A DNA stretch of 64,000 bases from Candidatus Limnocylindria bacterium (GTDB lineage: Bacteria > Chloroflexota > Limnocylindria > P2-11E): NCBI GenBank assembly GCA_035543375.1, contig DASZZF010000002.1:67202-131201 (forward strand), written 5' to 3'. The position numbers were made by a program, and so were the translations under genes. Shown piece by piece: positions 4,357 through 46,925 of the stretch. Numbering within the stretch: the first letter of the stretch is position 1; each line of letters opens with the position of its first letter. The notes beneath the pieces were generated by a model, which was given only the letters and a program-made list of their open reading frames with translations, was not told where the DNA came from and did not search any database.

Positions 4357-5937
4357 ATGGCGTCGTTGGCAGGCAAGGGCATCGAGATCGGTGGCGGCCC
4401 GATCGATCGCGCAGACGCGGTACTCACCCGCGACGCTTTGGCCTTCGTCGCCGACCTGGTCCGGACCTTCGAGAGTACCCGCGAAGCGCTCCTCGAGGCG
4501 CGCCGCGCCCGCCAGGCGGAGCTCTCGGCCGGCGCTGAGCTCGGATTCCTCGCCGCGACGCGCGCCATTCGCGAGGGCGAGTGGCGCGTGGCGCCGGCGC
4601 CCGCCGACCTGCAGGTGCGAAAGGTCGAGATCACCGGCCCGACCGATCGCAAGATGGTCATCAACGCGCTCAACTGCGGGGCATCCGTGTACATGGCGGA
4701 CTTCGAGGACGCCAACACCCCGACATGGGAGAATATGGTCTCCGGCCAGGTGAACCTGATCGACGCCGTGCGCCGGCGGATCGCCCTCACAAGCCCCGAG
4801 GGCAAGACCTACAAGCTCAACGACACGCTCGCGACGCTCGTCGTGCGCCCGCGGGGCTGGCACCTTACCGAGAAGCACCTCACCGTGGACGGCGCGCCGG
4901 TGGCCGGCGCGCTCATGGATTTCGGACTGTTCTTCTTCCACAACGCGCGCGAGCTCATGCAGCGCGGCAGTGGACCGTACTTCTACCTCCCAAAGCTCGA
5001 GAGCCACCGCGAGGCCCGACTGTGGAACGACATCTTCGTCCGCGCGCAGGAGCGCCTCGGCATCCCGACGGGCACCGTGAGGGCCACGGTGCTGGTCGAG
5101 ACCTTCCCGGCCGCGTTCGAGATGGAGGAAATCCTCTACGAGCTGCGCGATCACTCCGGCGGCCTGAACGCCGGCCGCTGGGACTACATCTTCAGCGTCA
5201 TCAAGAAGTTCAATCACCGGTCGGATTTCCTGCTGCCCGACCGGATCCAGGTCACGATGACGGTGCCGTTCATGCGCGCCTACACGGAGCTCCTCGTGCG
5301 CACGTGCCACAAGCGCGGGGCCTTCGCGCTCGGCGGTATGGCGGCCTTCATCCCGACCCGCAAGGACCCGGAGGTGAACGAGGTGGCCCTCGCGAAAGTG
5401 CGCGACGACAAGGTCCGCGAGGCGACCGATGGCTTCGACGGAACGTGGGTCGCGCATCCCGACCTCGTCCCGGTGGCGATGGCCGAGTTCGACCGCGTCC
5501 TCGGCGCGCGCAAGAACCAGCTCGACCGCACGCGCGACGAGGTCATCGTGGCTGACGCCCAGCTGCGCGCGGTAGGTGTGCCCGGAGGGACGATCACGGA
5601 CGCCGGGGTCAAGAGCAACGTCAGCGTGGGGATCCAGTACCTCGAATCATGGCTTCGCGGGGTCGGCGCGGCCGCGATCTACAACCTCATGGAGGACGCC
5701 GCCACAGCCGAGATCTCGCGATCGCAGATCTGGCAATGGGTGCATCACGGGGCGAACACCGCCGAGGGCACCCCGGTGACCAAGGAGCTGGTGCAGAAGA
5801 TCGGTCGCGAGGAGGTCGCCCGGCTCGACGGACCGGGACGCAGATTCAACGACGCGATCGCCCTCTTCGAGCAAGTGGCCCTCGCGGACCGGTTCGTGGA
5901 GTTCCTGACCCTGCCCGGGTACGACCGCCTGCCCTGA
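4357..5937 (+). CDS. aceB: malate synthase A
   Basis: [13 protein letters not shown]...[14 protein letters not shown]...[22 protein letters not shown]...[15 protein letters not shown]...[13 protein letters not shown] at 4357 is preceded by GGAGGAGG. The track ORF 3766..5937 is 5'-extended. Confidence 0.95.
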
Positions 5938-7094
5938 CCGAGCGCACCAGCGGCATCCTGCTCGCGGCAGCGACCGCGATCGCGGTCGGGCTGACGTATA
6001 CCGACCAGGCGGCGCTCGTCCCGCTCATCCGCGCGGAGCTCGGCATCACCGACGTGCAGGCCGGGCTGTTGCCGACCGCGCTCTTCCTGACCTCGATCCC
6101 CACGATGCTCGTCACATCGACGCTCGCCGATCGCATCGGCGCGAAGCGCATGAACGGCTACGGCGTCGCGATCGCTCTCGCGGGGAATCTCCTGTTCAGC
6201 ATCGCGCCCTCGTACGAAGGCATGCTCGCGGCGAAAGCCGTCGGCGGCGTCGCGAGCGGGATGGCGTTCGTCGGCGGGGTCCGGTACATCAGTGGCCTCT
6301 ACGCCGGCGCGCGCTCGCATCTCGGTCAGGGCCTGTACGGAGCCGGGTATCCGCTGGGCACCGCGCTCGGCTTGCAGCTCTTGCCGCCGCTGGCCCTTGC
6401 GTTCGGCGGCTGGCGGGGCGCGTTCGTCGGCTCGAGCGCGCTCTTGCTCGTCGTCCTTGTCGTCTATGCGGTCGTCGCCCCAACGGTGCCCGCGCTACGG
6501 TTGGCGGGAGGCATCAGAGACGCACTGCGCGACGGGAACGCGTGGTGGTGTTTCGTCGAGCACGCGGCGGGCTTCGGACTGGCGCTCGCGACCGGCACCT
6601 GGGTGAGCGTCTTCGTCCTTCGCGAGTTCGACGCGTCGCTCGTCGTCGCCGGCGCGCTCGGGTCGCTCCTTCCCCTCATCGGTCTGGCCATGCGCCCGCT
6701 CGGTGGCTACCTCGTCGCGCGCGAGCGCGCGACGACGGTCGCGATCATGCGGGGGTCACAGCTCGTGAGCCTGACCGGGCTGGTGCTCCTCGCGTTCCCC
6801 GGAAGACCGCTCGCCGTCGCGGTGGTCGGCGGGCTGATGGTGGGGAGCGGTGCCGCCCTCCCGTACGCCGCCGTATTCAACACCGCGGCGGCCTCGCTGC
6901 GGCGCGCGCCGGGCGCCGCGCAGTCGCTCGCCGCGGCGGGCGGCACGTTCGGCGCGGTGCTCGGCGCGCCGGCGATGGGATTCGCGGTCGAGCGGTTCGG
7001 GTTCAGCGCGGCGTGGGCGGTCATCGCGATCCTGCCCGTGGCCGCGCTCGTGGGCACGTTCGTCCTGCGCGGCGAGGAGCAGCTCGCCCCTTAG
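5934..7094 (+). CDS. MFS transporter
   Basis: About 12 predicted TM helices. The first TM ([17 protein letters not shown]) starts right after CTG 5934, which overlaps the aceB TGA (CTGA). The nearest in-frame canonical start is either 200+ nt inside aceB or downstream of TM1, so the start is provisional. Confidence 0.8.
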
Positions 7095-7832
7095 CGGATG
7101 TCGTCCTGCTCGGCGATGAACACCAGGGCACGCCGAACTGTGATCCGACCGTTGCCGCGAGGGCCCTCACGCCGAGGGTTTCGGTGACCCAGTGCGAGCC
7201 GACGATGAGGTTGAGTCCCCGCTCGCGCGCGTAGCGCTTCGTGTACATCGATCCCTCGCCGGTGACAACGGTCTCCGCCGGTGCAGCCGCGCCTCCTCGA
7301 GCATGCTCGTGAGACCCACGCCGCCGGTGGCGATCGCCACGCGTTTGCACGTGGGCGCGTTCTCCCACGCCTCGATCGGTTCGCCGAGAGGGTCACATGC
7401 GCTCGCAGAGCTGCGCGAACGTCCGCTCGTGCCGGCCGACGTCGCCCGCCAAACCGCCGTGGTACGGGAGGAACCGCTCCTGCAGGGTGACTCCGAGCGC
7501 CGCCGCGAGCATCGGGATTGCCGAAACCCGGCGCGCCGTCGAGCGCGGAGTGGGCACCGTCCAGCGAGATCCCGTTGTCGCGGAGACGATCGAGCTTCTG
7601 GGGTTCGAGCTCGAGATCGATGTGTGGCCACGTCCGGTGATGGACGATGAGCAGGTCCGAGTCGGTGACCTTCGCGCGCGCGATCGCGTGGAACGACGTG
7701 TTTCACGGCCGCGGCGACGCGGGTCACCGTGTCGCCGGACCCAGGACGAGGCCGTTCGACGCTTCCTCATCGAACCTCCCGACCTCGACCGTCGCGTCGA
7801 GGAAGGCGGCGACATCGTCGAGCCTCGCTCAA
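7091..7832 (-). pseudogene. Nif3/YbgI family (GTP cyclohydrolase 1 type 2 homologue) gene disrupted by about 7 single-nt frameshifts
   Basis: Homology to YbgI-type proteins (NGL..G, LLIVHH, AHSALD, ATGG, VVTGE, GSHW.TE) is continuous only if the reading frame is switched about seven times across all three minus frames. Pieces appear in track ORFs 7393..7848, 7167..7727, 7021..7368 and 7091..7396. Confidence 0.75.
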
Positions 7833-45512: not shown

Positions 45513-46028
45513 ATGAACCCGGTCAAGGGCGCTGTCGCGGGGGCGGTCGGCGGGCTCGCCGGCGCGTACGCGATGGAGCGATTCCAGTACTGGTGGCAGG
45601 ACCTGGAGCAGCGTGCCGCGCCGAAGCGCCGGGCCCACGCCGCCAGGGACGGCGCGGCCGATAAGCAGACCGAGGAGCCCGCGACCGTGCAGGTCGCCGA
45701 ACGGCTCTCCGAGAAGCTGCTGGCTTCGCCGCTACCGGACGCGCTGAAGCCGAAGGCCGGCGAGGCGGTCCACTACGCGACCGGCGGGCTGATCGGCGCG
45801 GCCTACGGAATCGCCGCGGAACTCCTGCCGCCCGCGCGTTGGGCGAACGGCATGGTCTTCGGAAGCGTCGTCTGGTGGGTCGCCGACAACATGGCCGTCC
45901 CGGCGCAAGGACTGGGCAAGAAGCCGGAACAGGTCCCGCCGTCGAAGCATGCCTACGCCCTCGCGTCGCACCTCGTGTACGGGTTCAGCACCGAGCTCGT
46001 GCGCCGCATCGTCCGGCTCGTCCTCTAG
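45513..46028 (+). CDS. small membrane protein (DUF1440-like, tentative)
   Basis: MNPVKGAVAGAVGGLAGAY..., 171 aa with 3-4 hydrophobic segments. Confidence 0.65.
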   Translation: MNPVKGAVAGAVGGLAGAYAMERFQYWWQDLEQRAAPKRRAHAARDGAADKQTEEPATVQVAERLSEKLLASPLPDALKPKAGEAVHYATGGLIGAAYGIAAELLPPARWANGMVFGSVVWWVADNMAVPAQGLGKKPEQVPPSKHAYALASHLVYGFSTELVRRIVRLVL

Positions 46029-46034
46029 ACCCGG

Positions 46035-46925
46035 CTACACGCCGTCCGCTGTCACGCGGACCGACTGCGCGATGAGGATCCCACCGATGACGACCGCTCC
46101 GCCAAGCACCTGCGGCAGCTGGAGCGATTCACCGATCAGCAGCCACGCGGCGATCGCCGCGACGACCGGCTCGCTCGTCGCGGTCAGGCCGACGCGCGCG
46201 GCGGGGATCAGCCGCACGGCGGCGACGGTGAACAGGTACGGGATCACCGTCGCGATCACGACGACCCCGAAAACGAGAAGCCCGATCTCGCCGGTCACGC
46301 TCGACCACGGCATCGCCCAGAGCGGTCGAACGATGGCCCAAGCCAGCAGCGCGCCGCCGAAGCCCCAGGTGAGCAGGGTCCAGGTGGAATAGCGGACGAC
46401 GAGCCGCTCCGCGACCAGGAAGTACACCGCGAAGATGAACGCGTCCACCGCCGCGAGGAGCGCGCCCAACGCATTCAGCTGCCGGAGCTCGGCGTCGTAC
46501 GCTCCGACGACGAGATAGCAGCCGGTGAGCGTCACCGCCGCGGCGAGCCAGAGCTGCGGCCCCACACGGCGACCGCGGGTCCGCCAGTACACGAGGATGA
46601 GCAGCGGCGCGGTGTACTCGATCACCAGCGCGACCCCGAGGGGAATGCGCTGGATCGCCTCGTAATAGATGAGCTGCACGCCGAACACGCCGAAGAGCGC
46701 GAACAGCCCGACGAGTGGTAGGTCGGCGCGCTGCACCCGAAGGTCCGCGCGCCGGAAGGCGAGCGTGATCGCGAGGAAGGCGAGAAAGCCGAAGAGGATC
46801 CGCCACTCGGCGAGCACGGAGGGGTCGATGCCGAGCGCGAACGCACGCTTCGCGATGACGCCGCCGACCCCGTAGAAGGCCGCGCCACCGACCGCGAACA
46901 GGTAGCCGAGCGCGATGCGGCTCAG
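46035..46925 (-). CDS. EamA/DMT-family transporter
   Basis: Ten-TM DMT pattern. The first helix (SRIALGYLFAVGGAAFYGVGGVIAKRAF) lies upstream of the track ORF start (GTG 46817) in an open frame that has no ATG/GTG/TTG. CTG 46923-46925 overlaps the nadE TGA. Confidence 0.85.
   Translation of the reverse strand: MSRIALGYLFAVGGAAFYGVGGVIAKRAFALGIDPSVLAEWRILFGFLAFLAITLAFRRADLRVQRADLPLVGLFALFGVFGVQLIYYEAIQRIPLGVALVIEYTAPLLILVYWRTRGRRVGPQLWLAAAVTLTGCYLVVGAYDAELRQLNALGALLAAVDAFIFAVYFLVAERLVVRYSTWTLLTWGFGGALLAWAIVRPLWAMPWSSVTGEIGLLVFGVVVIATVIPYLFTVAAVRLIPAARVGLTATSEPVVAAIAAWLLIGESLQLPQVLGGAVVIGGILIAQSVRVTADGV

What the first reader, a model, noticed from the sequence alone, without database searches (positions are those of the whole stretch)
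5934..46925. Recurrent CTGA stop/start junctions: apparent CTG-initiated, translationally coupled genes
Most same-strand neighbours in this window are joined by 4-nt NTGA overlaps. By my hand count there are about 6 ATGA, 7 GTGA and 2 TTGA junctions. At four more junctions the overlap is CTGA, and conserved protein sequence of the downstream gene begins exactly at the CTG. These are aceB/MFS (5934-5937), aminotransferase/HEAT protein (10667-10670), metG/tatD (42007-42010) and nadE/eamA (46922-46925). In the eamA case no ATG/GTG/TTG exists in the open frame at all. dnaE (531-533) also has only a CTG ahead of its PHP motif. CTG initiation is known in bacteria but is rare. Four or five cases among about 60 genes would be unusual. 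Gene callers would systematically truncate or over-extend these genes.
Basis: partly seen in the sequence, partly recalled or inferred. Interest (0 to 1): 0.8.

Follow-up and report, generated by a model that had tools for sequence, protein, structure and literature searches.

The report
Conserved CTGA stop-start gene overlaps
In this uncultured Chloroflexota genome, four gene pairs overlap as CTGA and the second gene of each pair has no normal start codon, so it most likely begins at the weak codon CTG; the arrangement is rare, is kept in related species, and is mis-annotated by gene finders.

Summary
The window is a 69% GC fragment of a 'Candidatus Limnocylindria' (Chloroflexota) genome. CTGA is present at all four stated junctions.

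CTGA alone is not unusual: 12 of 32 TGA stops in the window are preceded by C. What is unusual is the following.
- None of the four downstream genes (MFS, AlkD-like HEAT protein, tatD, eamA) has ATG/GTG/TTG ahead of its conserved N-terminal core.
- The stretch from the CTG to the first canonical codon evolves like coding sequence.
- The tetranucleotide CTGA is kept in 8/8, 7/7 and 12/13 related species. Neighbouring four-fold sites are saturated, and codon usage favours G at that position.
- In some relatives, in-frame stops rule out any upstream start.

The best reading is termination-reinitiation at near-cognate CUG, probably giving weak coupled expression.

- dnaE starts at ATC 518 (ATC/ATT plus a Shine-Dalgarno motif in six species), not at CTG 533.
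- eamA has a second candidate, CTG 46937, which is TTG in relatives.
- Only 18 of 50 same-strand pairs overlap by 4 nt.
- Elsewhere in related genomes such junctions are rare (0-1 per 84 canonical ones), so there is no sign of genome-wide relaxed initiation.

There is no protein-level proof.

The parts
5934..5937 (+). CTGA junction: aceB stop TGA (5935-5937) overlapping the proposed CTG start of the MFS gene (5934-5936)
   Evidence: CTGA is kept in 8/8 species, always with CCC as the last aceB codon although CCG is the preferred Pro codon.
4366..5937 (+). Malate synthase (aceB, about 523 aa). The 3766-5937 ORF is an over-extension.
   Evidence: Pfam MS_N, MS_TIM-barrel and MS_C. Relatives are called at 522-550 aa. 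Coding potential begins near 4372. The TTG 4366 start is inferred.
5934..7094 (+). MFS transporter, proposed 386 aa starting at CTG 5934
   Evidence: MFS_1 Pfam hit. The first canonical codon, GTG 6054, would remove TM1. Codons 2-40 vary at positions 1/2/3 in 18/11/34 sites. In L177 the frame is closed 15 codons upstream.
10667..10670 (-). CTGA junction: aminotransferase stop overlapping the proposed CTG start (10670-10668) of the AlkD-like HEAT gene; ATC follows at 10667-10665
   Evidence: CTGA is kept in 7/7 species while the last aminotransferase codon varies (CTC/CGC/CAC).
10667..11836 (-). Class I/II aminotransferase (ATG 11836, in an ATGA overlap with gatA)
   Evidence: Pfam Aminotran_1_2. 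The ATG is kept in 7 relatives.
9804..10670 (-). DNA_alkylation/HEAT (AlkC/AlkD-like) protein, proposed 288 aa
   Evidence: Pfam. Homologue alignment shows conservation from 'LIDWE' onward. The NCBI-listed protein from this sequence is truncated to 256 aa (P0001).
10701..10703 (-). Alternative in-frame CTG, 11 codons upstream of the junction. It lies in the aminotransferase Ala-Cys codons (GCC TGC); many homologues have ATG/GTG here.
   Evidence: In L177 this site is GTG followed directly by TGA, so it cannot be the universal start.
42007..42010 (-). CTGA junction: metG stop overlapping the proposed CTG start (42010-42008) of tatD; ATC follows at 42007-42005
   Evidence: Kept in 12 of 13 close-clade species. 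Sister clades have GTG at the aligned codon.
42007..43551 (-). Methionyl-tRNA synthetase (GTG 43551, with a TAAACT box 6 nt upstream)
   Evidence: Pfam.
41252..42010 (-). TatD-family hydrolase, proposed 252 aa
   Evidence: TatD_DNase Pfam positions 1-253 start at the residue after the CTG. PDB homologues agree. The first canonical codon, GTG 41953, would remove the HxH motif.
46922..46925 (-). CTGA junction: nadE stop overlapping CTG 46925-46923 in the eamA frame
   Evidence: Kept in the window and in L001, L008, L029 and L169-L172.
46935..46937 (-). Second candidate CTG for eamA. It is the first codon after the in-frame TGA and lies in nadE's GAC TGG; relatives with GAT TGG have TTG here.
   Evidence: The TTG share among homologues (22/120) is no higher than the 25% GAT usage.
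46922..47788 (-). NAD synthase nadE (GTG 47788, in a GTGA overlap with the CN_hydrolase gene)
   Evidence: Pfam.
46035..46937 (-). EamA/DMT transporter (296-300 aa, depending on which CTG is used)
   Evidence: EamA Pfam starts at open-frame residue 10. The first canonical codon is GTG 46817, at residue 41. The database call is truncated to 260 aa (P0122).
516..518 (-). ATC: the best-supported dnaE start codon, 4 codons before FVHLHTHSEYS
   Evidence: ATC/ATT is kept at this position in six species, with a G-rich SD 5-7 nt upstream. SD duplex energy is -7.3 kcal/mol.
531..533 (-).
   Evidence: It is CGG in L175 and out of frame in L161/L179.
3..518 (-). N-terminal part of dnaE (PHP domain); the gene runs off the window
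   Evidence: Pfam PHP; PDB DnaE alignments.

Best explanation
Four co-directional gene pairs (aceB-MFS, aminotransferase-AlkD-like HEAT protein, metG-tatD, nadE-eamA) are joined by a -4 overlap that reads CUGA instead of the usual AUGA/GUGA.

Proposed mechanism:
- The ribosome that terminates at the UGA of the upstream gene stays on the mRNA.
- It re-initiates one base back, at the near-cognate codon CUG, with initiator tRNA (termination-reinitiation coupling).
- No strong Shine-Dalgarno motif is needed.
- Because CUG is a poor start codon, the downstream protein is made at a small, fixed fraction of the upstream enzyme. All four downstream proteins are functionally unrelated to their upstream partners and are probably needed in small amounts: two membrane transporters, a nuclease-family hydrolase and a DNA glycosylase-like protein.

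dnaE in the same window uses a different near-cognate start, AUC, with its own Shine-Dalgarno motif.

Shown here: no canonical start is available; the N-terminal stretches carry a coding-type constraint; CTGA is conserved across species; upstream starts are excluded in some species.

Inferred: reinitiation as the mechanism, CUG decoded as fMet, and low expression as the selected trait.
For: 1. No canonical start. The open frames contain no ATG/GTG/TTG between the junction region and essential N-terminal elements: TatD HxH, TM1 of EamA and MFS, and the conserved 'IDWE...GW' segment of the HEAT protein.

2. The stretch is translated. From codon 2 to the first canonical codon, variable sites at codon positions 1/2/3 are 18/11/34 (MFS), 13/10/26 (HEAT), 4/4/16 (tatD) and 10/13/24 (eamA).

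3. Upstream starts are excluded.
- In L177 the MFS frame has TAG 15 codons upstream. The HEAT frame reads GTG-TGA 11-10 codons upstream. No start-like codon follows either.
- In L179 the junction CTG is the only near-cognate codon within about 15 codons for MFS.
- For tatD, 25 sister-clade species carry GTG at the aligned codon, 7-13 nt after the metG stop, some with only 1-3 open codons upstream.

4. The C is selected.
- CTGA is invariant in 8/8, 7/7 and 12/13 species.
- Only 3/72, 7/63 and 3/70 four-fold sites in the same alignments are invariant. The product is 2e-4.
- Codon usage favours G: CCG 68% against CCC 23%.
- Control genes in the same species vary in both stop codon and the base before it.

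5. The upstream 'canonical' sites used by gene callers look neutral. TTG for eamA is 22/120 against a 25% GAT expectation. By my rough count from the length classes in the hit table, about 40% of HEAT homologues carry ATG/GTG/TTG at the upstream site, against the 63% that Ala codon usage would give.

6. SD complementarity at CTGA junctions (mean -5.05 kcal/mol) equals that of ATGA/GTGA junctions (-5.2). It is weaker than for genes that follow intergenic gaps (-7.4).

7. Other cases of CTGA replacing GTGA/ATGA occur in relatives: nadE in L029, the DinB-like gene in L035, and a permease in L037.

8. Precedent. CUG initiates at 1-2% of AUG in E. coli (10.1101/063800). A conserved CUG start of rpsL and an AUC start of dnaA were proven by N-terminal proteomics in Deinococcus (PMC2830850). 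Coupling at -4 overlaps by termination-reinitiation is established (PMC6728339, PMC10666635).
Against: - There is no protein or ribosome-profiling evidence. Everything rests on comparative sequence.
- If CUG were simply a start codon, G or A would work at least as well and is a synonymous change for the upstream gene. The strict retention of C therefore needs an extra assumption (selection for weak initiation). It would be explained more simply if CUG were an internal Leu codon.
- tatD in L007 reads CTC ATA, with the metG stop moved to TAG. CTG is therefore dispensable there.
- tatD and HEAT both read CTGATC, and dnaE shows this lineage can use AUC.
- eamA has a second CTG 12 nt upstream, at the site where relatives have TTG.
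- In L001, where the DinB-like gene's junction became CTGA, a GTG appears two codons downstream. This hints that CTG is not good enough there.
- Outside these four families the arrangement is rare in the same lineage: 0-1 against 84 canonical junctions. Control high-GC loci give 1 against 42.
Confidence: 0.6

Rival explanations
1. The true start is the AUC (or AUA) codon right after the CTG, giving a 1-nt stop/start overlap UGAUC. On this view the CTG is only the last bases of the upstream gene. This applies to tatD and the HEAT gene.
For: - Both junctions read CTGATCGA.
- In the tatD close clade, ATC/ATA is kept in 13/13 species. L007 has lost CTG (CTC) but keeps ATA.
- dnaE in this lineage uses ATC/ATT with six-species conservation.
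- AUC initiates about as well as CUG in E. coli.
Against: - ATC is simply the conserved second codon (Ile) of TatD, also in the sister clade that starts with GTG.
- In HEAT homologues the second codon is ACC, AGC or AAC in several species.
- MFS and eamA relatives have no ATH nearby.
- It leaves the strict conservation of the C unexplained.
Confidence: 0.12
2. Translation starts further upstream, inside the upstream gene, at a canonical or near-cognate codon (overlaps of 16-100 nt). The junction CTG would then be an ordinary internal Leu codon, which would explain why C is conserved.
For: - eamA relatives have TTG four codons upstream, and callers start there.
- Many HEAT homologues have ATG/GTG 11 codons upstream.
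- tatD close-clade species mostly have GTG 31-32 codons upstream.
- The off-frames are open for long stretches.
- A Leu constraint would explain the invariance of C.
Against: - The upstream sites are by-products of conserved residues of the upstream protein: Asp-Trp, Ala-Cys and Pro-Trp.
- Their N follows neutral codon usage.
- They are missing or blocked by stops in some species: L177 for HEAT and MFS; L004 and L009 for tatD.
- In the tatD sister clades the start is exactly the aligned codon.
- The upstream translations are Arg/Pro-rich out-of-frame sequence.
Confidence: 0.15
3. Nothing special: CTGA is a chance consequence of GC-rich third positions, and the genes start at the downstream canonical codons chosen by the annotation pipelines.
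For: - CTGA occurs at 12 of 32 TGA stops, and eight of those are not junctions.
- Pipelines do call downstream starts.
Against: - Those starts delete the TatD HxH motif, TM1 of two transporters, the DnaE PHP motif and 32 conserved residues of the HEAT protein.
- The deleted stretches show coding-type substitution patterns.
- CTGA is conserved specifically at these junctions.
Confidence: 0.03
4. Initiator-independent continuation: either a -1 frameshift at the stop makes a fusion protein, or the post-termination ribosome restarts without fMet-tRNA and reads CUG as Leu.
For: - The C (that is, Leu) is conserved.
- Restart next to a stop codon without a start codon has been described when ribosome recycling is impaired (discussed in PMC9955659).
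Against: - There is no slippery heptamer, and the bases before CTGA differ between species.
- Fusions of soluble enzymes to membrane transporters are implausible.
- No natural bacterial gene is known to depend on such a restart (my own knowledge).
Confidence: 0.04

Closest known systems
Translational coupling by termination-reinitiation at -4 overlaps (AUGA/GUGA); Huber et al. 2019 and 2023 (PMC6728339, PMC10666635)
   Same: Co-directional genes share four bases between stop and start. SD complementarity is weak. The overlap is conserved between species. The same window holds 14 canonical examples.
   Different: The overlapped start is CUG. The surveys and reviews I read list only ATGA/GTGA, TGATG-type and -8 overlaps. 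The pairs here join functionally unrelated genes, not subunits of one complex. Coupling itself is untested here.
Proteomics-proven near-cognate starts in Deinococcus: rpsL CUG, dnaA AUC, infC, HPPK CUG (Baudet et al., PMC2830850)
   Same: A high-GC lineage with leaderless-type promoters. CUG and AUC starts are conserved among relatives. A replication gene carries AUC. Annotations had to be corrected.
   Different: The Deinococcus cases are not described as stop-start overlaps. The present cases lack peptide evidence, and the phylum is different (Chloroflexota).
Weak start codons as expression-setting devices: infC AUU (IF3 autoregulation) and Streptomyces sigR GUC (PMC5472188)
   Same: A non-canonical start codon is kept by selection rather than drift, presumably to hold translation low or to make it sensitive to IF3.
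   Different: No regulatory loop is known or implied for these four genes. The context here is reinitiation after a stop, not SD-led initiation.
Measured initiation from all 64 codons in E. coli (Hecht et al., 10.1101/063800)
   Same: CUG, AUC, AUU and AUA form the near-cognate class at 1-2% of AUG, which makes the proposed starts mechanistically feasible.
   Different: That was measured in E. coli with SD-led reporters. Efficiency in reinitiation, and in this lineage, is unknown.

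Membership tests
-4 overlap termination-reinitiation (TeRe) gene pairs | Co-directional genes whose stop and start codons share 4 nt (NTGA) | tested here: met
   CTGA is in frame with both genes at all four junctions.
-4 overlap termination-reinitiation (TeRe) gene pairs | The overlapped start is a canonical codon (ATG or GTG, rarely TTG) | tested here: not met
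   The codon is CTG in the window and in 7-13 related species.
-4 overlap termination-reinitiation (TeRe) gene pairs | Translation of the downstream gene depends on translation of the upstream gene | not testable with these tools
   This needs reporter constructs with premature stops in the upstream gene.
-4 overlap termination-reinitiation (TeRe) gene pairs | The overlap is conserved in orthologous pairs of related genomes | tested here: met
   8/8 (aceB-MFS), 7/7 (AT-HEAT), 12/13 (metG-tatD), and all eight eamA loci examined. Control genes vary.
Near-cognate (non-AUG/GUG/UUG) bacterial initiation codons | No canonical start between the upstream in-frame stop (or the start of conserved sequence) and essential N-terminal residues | tested here: met
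   for all five genes. In-frame stops in L177, and in the window itself for eamA and dnaE, close the frame upstream.
Near-cognate (non-AUG/GUG/UUG) bacterial initiation codons | The candidate codon is conserved at the orthologous position in relatives | tested here: met
   CTG at the four junctions. ATC/ATT for dnaE in six species. CTG 533 of dnaE fails this test.
Near-cognate (non-AUG/GUG/UUG) bacterial initiation codons | Shine-Dalgarno motif at functional spacing, or another ribosome-delivery route | tested here: inconclusive
   dnaE ATC has a G-rich SD 5-7 nt upstream (-7.3 kcal/mol). The junction genes have only weak complementarity (-3.8 to -6.4), like canonical junction genes. Delivery by reinitiation is inferred.
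Near-cognate (non-AUG/GUG/UUG) bacterial initiation codons | N-terminal peptide or initiation-site profiling evidence | not testable with these tools
   No proteomic or Ribo-seq data are available. The lineage is uncultured.
Programmed -1 ribosomal frameshift fusion | Slippery heptamer (X XXY YYZ) at the shift site, conserved among relatives | tested here: not met
   The bases before CTGA are GCC, GCT, GGC or CGA and vary between species.

The most novel reading that the evidence does not exclude
CUGA is a distinct, selected class of stop-start overlap, which could be called 'attenuated coupling'. The near-cognate CUG would be kept, against codon bias and over long divergence, to translate an unrelated low-abundance gene at a small fixed fraction of a housekeeping gene. 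Such junctions, together with AUY starts like that of dnaE, would be systematically invisible to all current gene callers in Limnocylindria and probably in other high-GC lineages.
Probability: 0.3. Interest if true: 0.7.

Novelty: new variant of a known kind. Interest (0 to 1): 0.52.

Why it matters
- Annotation. At least five genes in 64 kb are truncated or over-extended in public records of this widespread soil and freshwater lineage. They include the replicative polymerase, a TatD hydrolase, a DNA-repair-type protein and two transporters. Catalytic motifs or first membrane helices are lost, which distorts protein-family alignments and structure predictions.
- Mechanism. If the C is truly selected, near-cognate CUG at a -4 overlap would be a simple evolutionary dial for the ratio of two co-transcribed proteins. 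This would extend the AUGA/GUGA-only picture of termination-reinitiation. It gives a concrete, testable case for how stringent start-codon choice is during reinitiation.
- Limit. The evidence does not point to a genome-wide change of the initiation machinery.

Tried and rejected
1. Compositional excess of CTGA: rejected. C precedes 12 of 32 TGA stops, and eight of these are not junctions.

2. A self-trained codon-usage gene finder flagged more genes without a nearby canonical start (hemB, diacylglycerol kinase, enolase-superfamily gene, DUF4349, SBP_bac_5). Pfam and direct inspection showed canonical starts for all of them, for example ATG 36821 with GGAGG for hemB.

3. Upstream GTG at -93/-96 as the tatD start: it is a by-product of metG's Pro-Trp codons and is absent in L004 and L009.

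4. ATG/GTG 11 codons upstream as the universal HEAT start: in L177 it is followed directly by TGA, and its frequency is no higher than neutral codon usage predicts.

5. TTG four codons upstream as the selected eamA start: 22/120 against 25% GAT usage, so no enrichment.

6. MFS start at codon 9-10 (ATG in L161 and L177): that position is CTC or GTC in other species, and codons 2-8 are conserved as protein.

7. Lineage-wide relaxed initiation: in regions of relatives not homologous to window genes, all 17 CTGA junctions have a canonical start within 14 codons downstream or 6 upstream. Control high-GC loci give 1 strict case against 42 canonical junctions.

8. Extrapolating start-codon columns for 30 window genes across all loci was too noisy because N-termini vary and synteny is lost.

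9. Exact look-ups of this genome's own GroEL and of P0001 returned nothing.

10. The metagenome scan with aceB gave mostly distant hits. Only L081, L087 and L100 were useful.

11. The initiator tRNA, IF3 and 16S 3' end could not be examined. The window has no tRNA genes; I did not search it for rRNA genes or infC.

12. Frameshift fusion: no slippery site.

Full report
WHAT THE WINDOW IS

The window averages about 69% GC (65-74% across 4-kb bins). A scan of one genome per species with its MetG found 59-84% identical relatives almost only in MAGs labelled Candidatus Limnocylindria or Chloroflexota. A 100% identical but shorter copy of one of its proteins is listed as 'MAG TPA: DNA alkylation repair protein [Candidatus Limnocylindria bacterium]' on a 217,723-bp contig (P0001).

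With a self-trained codon model, Pfam and inspection, I placed about 63 genes, mostly on the minus strand.

THE OBSERVATION

CTGA is present at all four coordinates, and CTG at 531-533 on the minus strand. The gene identities are right.

Of 50 same-strand neighbour pairs:
- 18 overlap by 4 nt (8 GTGA, 6 ATGA, 4 CTGA);
- 4 overlap by 1 nt;
- 2 have longer overlaps;
- 26 have gaps.

CTGA as a string carries no signal. C precedes 12 of the 32 TGA stops, and eight of those are not gene junctions. 48% of four-fold third positions are C.

NO CANONICAL START IS AVAILABLE

I listed every ATG/GTG/TTG/CTG/ATH in the open frames.
- tatD: TatD Pfam position 1 is the residue after CTG 42010. The next canonical codon, GTG 41953, removes the HxH metal ligands. 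Solved TatD proteins place their Met at or one residue before this codon.
- eamA: the frame opens only four codons upstream of the junction. The first canonical codon, GTG 46817, is 36 codons downstream, inside the EamA domain.
- MFS: the first downstream canonical codon, GTG 6054, removes TM1. The upstream ATGs lie in Arg-rich out-of-frame sequence.
- HEAT/DNA_alkylation protein: homologues are conserved from 'LIDWE' onward. The protein listed for this sequence starts 32 residues later, at a conserved internal Val.
- dnaE: only CTG 533 and ATC 518 precede FVHLHTHSEYS. The first canonical codon lies after that motif.

Other genes that my coding-potential screen flagged turned out to have normal starts. 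The count is therefore five of about 63 genes.

COMPARATIVE EVIDENCE

I collected the orthologous DNA from related species.

tatD
- 25 sister-clade species have GTG ATC GAC at the aligned codon, 7-13 nt after the metG stop. Some have only 1-3 open codons upstream, so that codon is the tatD start there.
- In the clade containing the window, 12 of 13 species have CTGATC overlapping the metG stop.
- L007 has CTC ATA G, with the metG stop moved.

MFS
- CTGA is present in 8/8 species.
- In L177 the frame is closed 15 codons upstream, with no start-like codon in between.
- In L179 the junction CTG is the only near-cognate codon within about 15 codons.

HEAT protein
- CTGA is present in 7/7 species.
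- The ATG/GTG that many callers use lies 11 codons upstream, in the aminotransferase's Ala-Cys codons. It is CTG in five species.
- In L177 it is GTG followed directly by TGA, so it cannot be the general start.

eamA
- The junction is kept in every locus examined.
- Close relatives also have TTG four codons upstream (nadE GAT TGG), where the window has CTG 46937 (GAC TGG).
- The share of homologues called from that site (22/120) is no higher than GAT usage (25%).

dnaE
- ATC or ATT, four codons before FVHLH, is kept in six species with a G-rich SD 5-7 nt upstream.
- CTG 533 is CGG or out of frame in relatives.
- dnaE is therefore an AUY-start gene, not a CTG-start gene.

THE N-TERMINAL STRETCHES ARE TRANSLATED

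Between the junction and the first canonical codon, variable sites at codon positions 1/2/3 are:
- 18/11/34 (MFS);
- 13/10/26 (HEAT);
- 4/4/16 (tatD);
- 10/13/24 (eamA).

Pipelines nevertheless truncate these genes. Examples: HEAT at 256-262 aa, eamA in a ladder of 249-293 aa, MFS at 335-378 aa, tatD at 214 aa, and dnaE starting after its HxH motif.

THE C IS UNDER SELECTION

In the last 150 codons of aceB, the aminotransferase and metG, only 3/72, 7/63 and 3/70 four-fold sites are invariant over the same species sets. Yet the base before TGA is always C. The product of those fractions is 2e-4.

The last sense codon itself changes (TCC, CTC, CCC, GCC; CTC, CGC, CAC). The genome prefers G-ending codons in these families (CCG 68% against CCC 23%).

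In control genes of the same species, both the stop codon and the preceding base vary. Canonical junctions switch between ATGA and GTGA.

A G or A at these sites would cost the upstream gene nothing and would make a standard junction. C itself is therefore being kept. I cannot decide from sequence whether this reflects selection for a weak start (my preferred reading) or CUG being read as Leu.

HOW COMMON IS IT

Using one pipeline on 855 kb of Limnocylindria loci, I found 89 GTGA, 71 ATGA and 66 CTGA junctions followed by a coding ORF.
- 41 of the CTGA junctions have no canonical codon within 15 codons downstream.
- Nearly all of these belong to the four window families.
- There are three further cases: nadE in L029, a DinB-like gene in L032 (its equivalent in L035 is also CTGA), and a permease in L037.

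In regions not homologous to any window gene there are 84 canonical junctions and 17 CTGA junctions. All 17 have a canonical start close by.

In 846 kb of other high-GC loci, the same screen gives 42 canonical junctions and one strict CTGA case.

The window's 4 against 14 therefore differs from its relatives' other regions (Fisher p = 0.003 to 0.0007). Those regions give no support for a lineage-wide relaxation of start-codon choice. A whole-genome count is needed.

MECHANISM

SD complementarity upstream of the CTGA junctions (mean -5.05 kcal/mol) matches that of ATGA/GTGA junctions (-5.2). It is weaker than for genes that follow gaps (-7.4). This fits delivery of the ribosome by termination-reinitiation, as established for -4 overlaps (PMC6728339, PMC10666635).

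CUG and AUC initiate at 1-2% of AUG in E. coli (10.1101/063800). A conserved CUG start (rpsL) and an AUC start (dnaA) were proven in Deinococcus (PMC2830850).

The coupling papers I read list only ATGA/GTGA, TGATG-type and -8 overlaps. No paper in the library links Limnocylindria with start codons.

VERDICT

The finding is real, but narrower and somewhat different from what was proposed. It consists of four conserved CUGA overlaps and one AUC start. All are mis-annotated in public data. They are most likely near-cognate (re)initiation sites kept for low expression.

Confidence that these genes use non-canonical starts is high, about 0.85. Confidence that the junction CUG is the codon used in at least MFS, HEAT and tatD is about 0.6.

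Noticed in passing
window 44440-44755 (minus strand): Only the last ~100 codons of a GCS2 (glutamate-cysteine ligase family 2) gene remain, with an in-frame TAG at 44638-44640. Relatives L169-L171 carry about 5 kb here (pyrophosphatase, esterase, a 318-aa gene, an ATP-grasp gene and full GCS2). This is a deletion or an assembly join in this MAG.
   Followed up: partly
window 7120-7822 (minus strand): The NIF3/DUF34 gene downstream of gatB aligns to the intact 249-aa relative in two different frames, with a break near 7500-7512. It is a frameshifted pseudogene or an assembly indel.
   Followed up: partly
window upstream of 2410, 13591, 13951 and 43551 (minus strand); same positions in L161-L179: TAAACT/TAGACT/CACACT hexamers lie exactly 6 nt upstream of the start codons of the EEP gene, gatC, the diacylglycerol kinase gene and metG, and are conserved in relatives. 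They look like -10 boxes of leaderless mRNAs. dnaE instead has TACACT about 40 nt upstream plus an SD.
   Followed up: partly
window 3766-5937 (+) and 2428-5457 (-): Very long overlapping ORFs on opposite strands. The malate synthase ORF of 723 aa is over-extended: relatives are called at 522-550 aa and homologues match residues ~200-722. The divergent GAF-domain gene ends its coding signal near 4190.
   Followed up: partly
L029:1047, L035 and L001 (DinB-like gene), L037 (minus strand, junction index 6670): Further CTGA junctions occur in relatives where the window has GTGA (nadE) or ATGA (DinB-like gene), and at a dppC-like permease (again CTGATC). In L001 a GTG appears two codons after the CTG, which may be a compensatory start.
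   Followed up: partly
L081 and L177, 5' end of dnaE: In this subclade the stretch between the in-frame TAG (part of a TAGACT box) and FVHLH has TTG in L177 but TGG in L081. There is no CTG or ATH. The L081 start is unexplained.
   Followed up: no
L171:1116-3620: SufB is 834 aa with a LAGLIDADG hit, so it probably carries an intein. The window's sufB (51272-52690) is 472 aa and has none.
   Followed up: no
whole window, stop codons: C is the commonest base before stops that are not used as overlapped starts (17 of 28 TAG; 8 of about 12 non-junction TGA), against 48% C at four-fold sites. TAA is almost absent (2 of 62 stops).
   Followed up: partly
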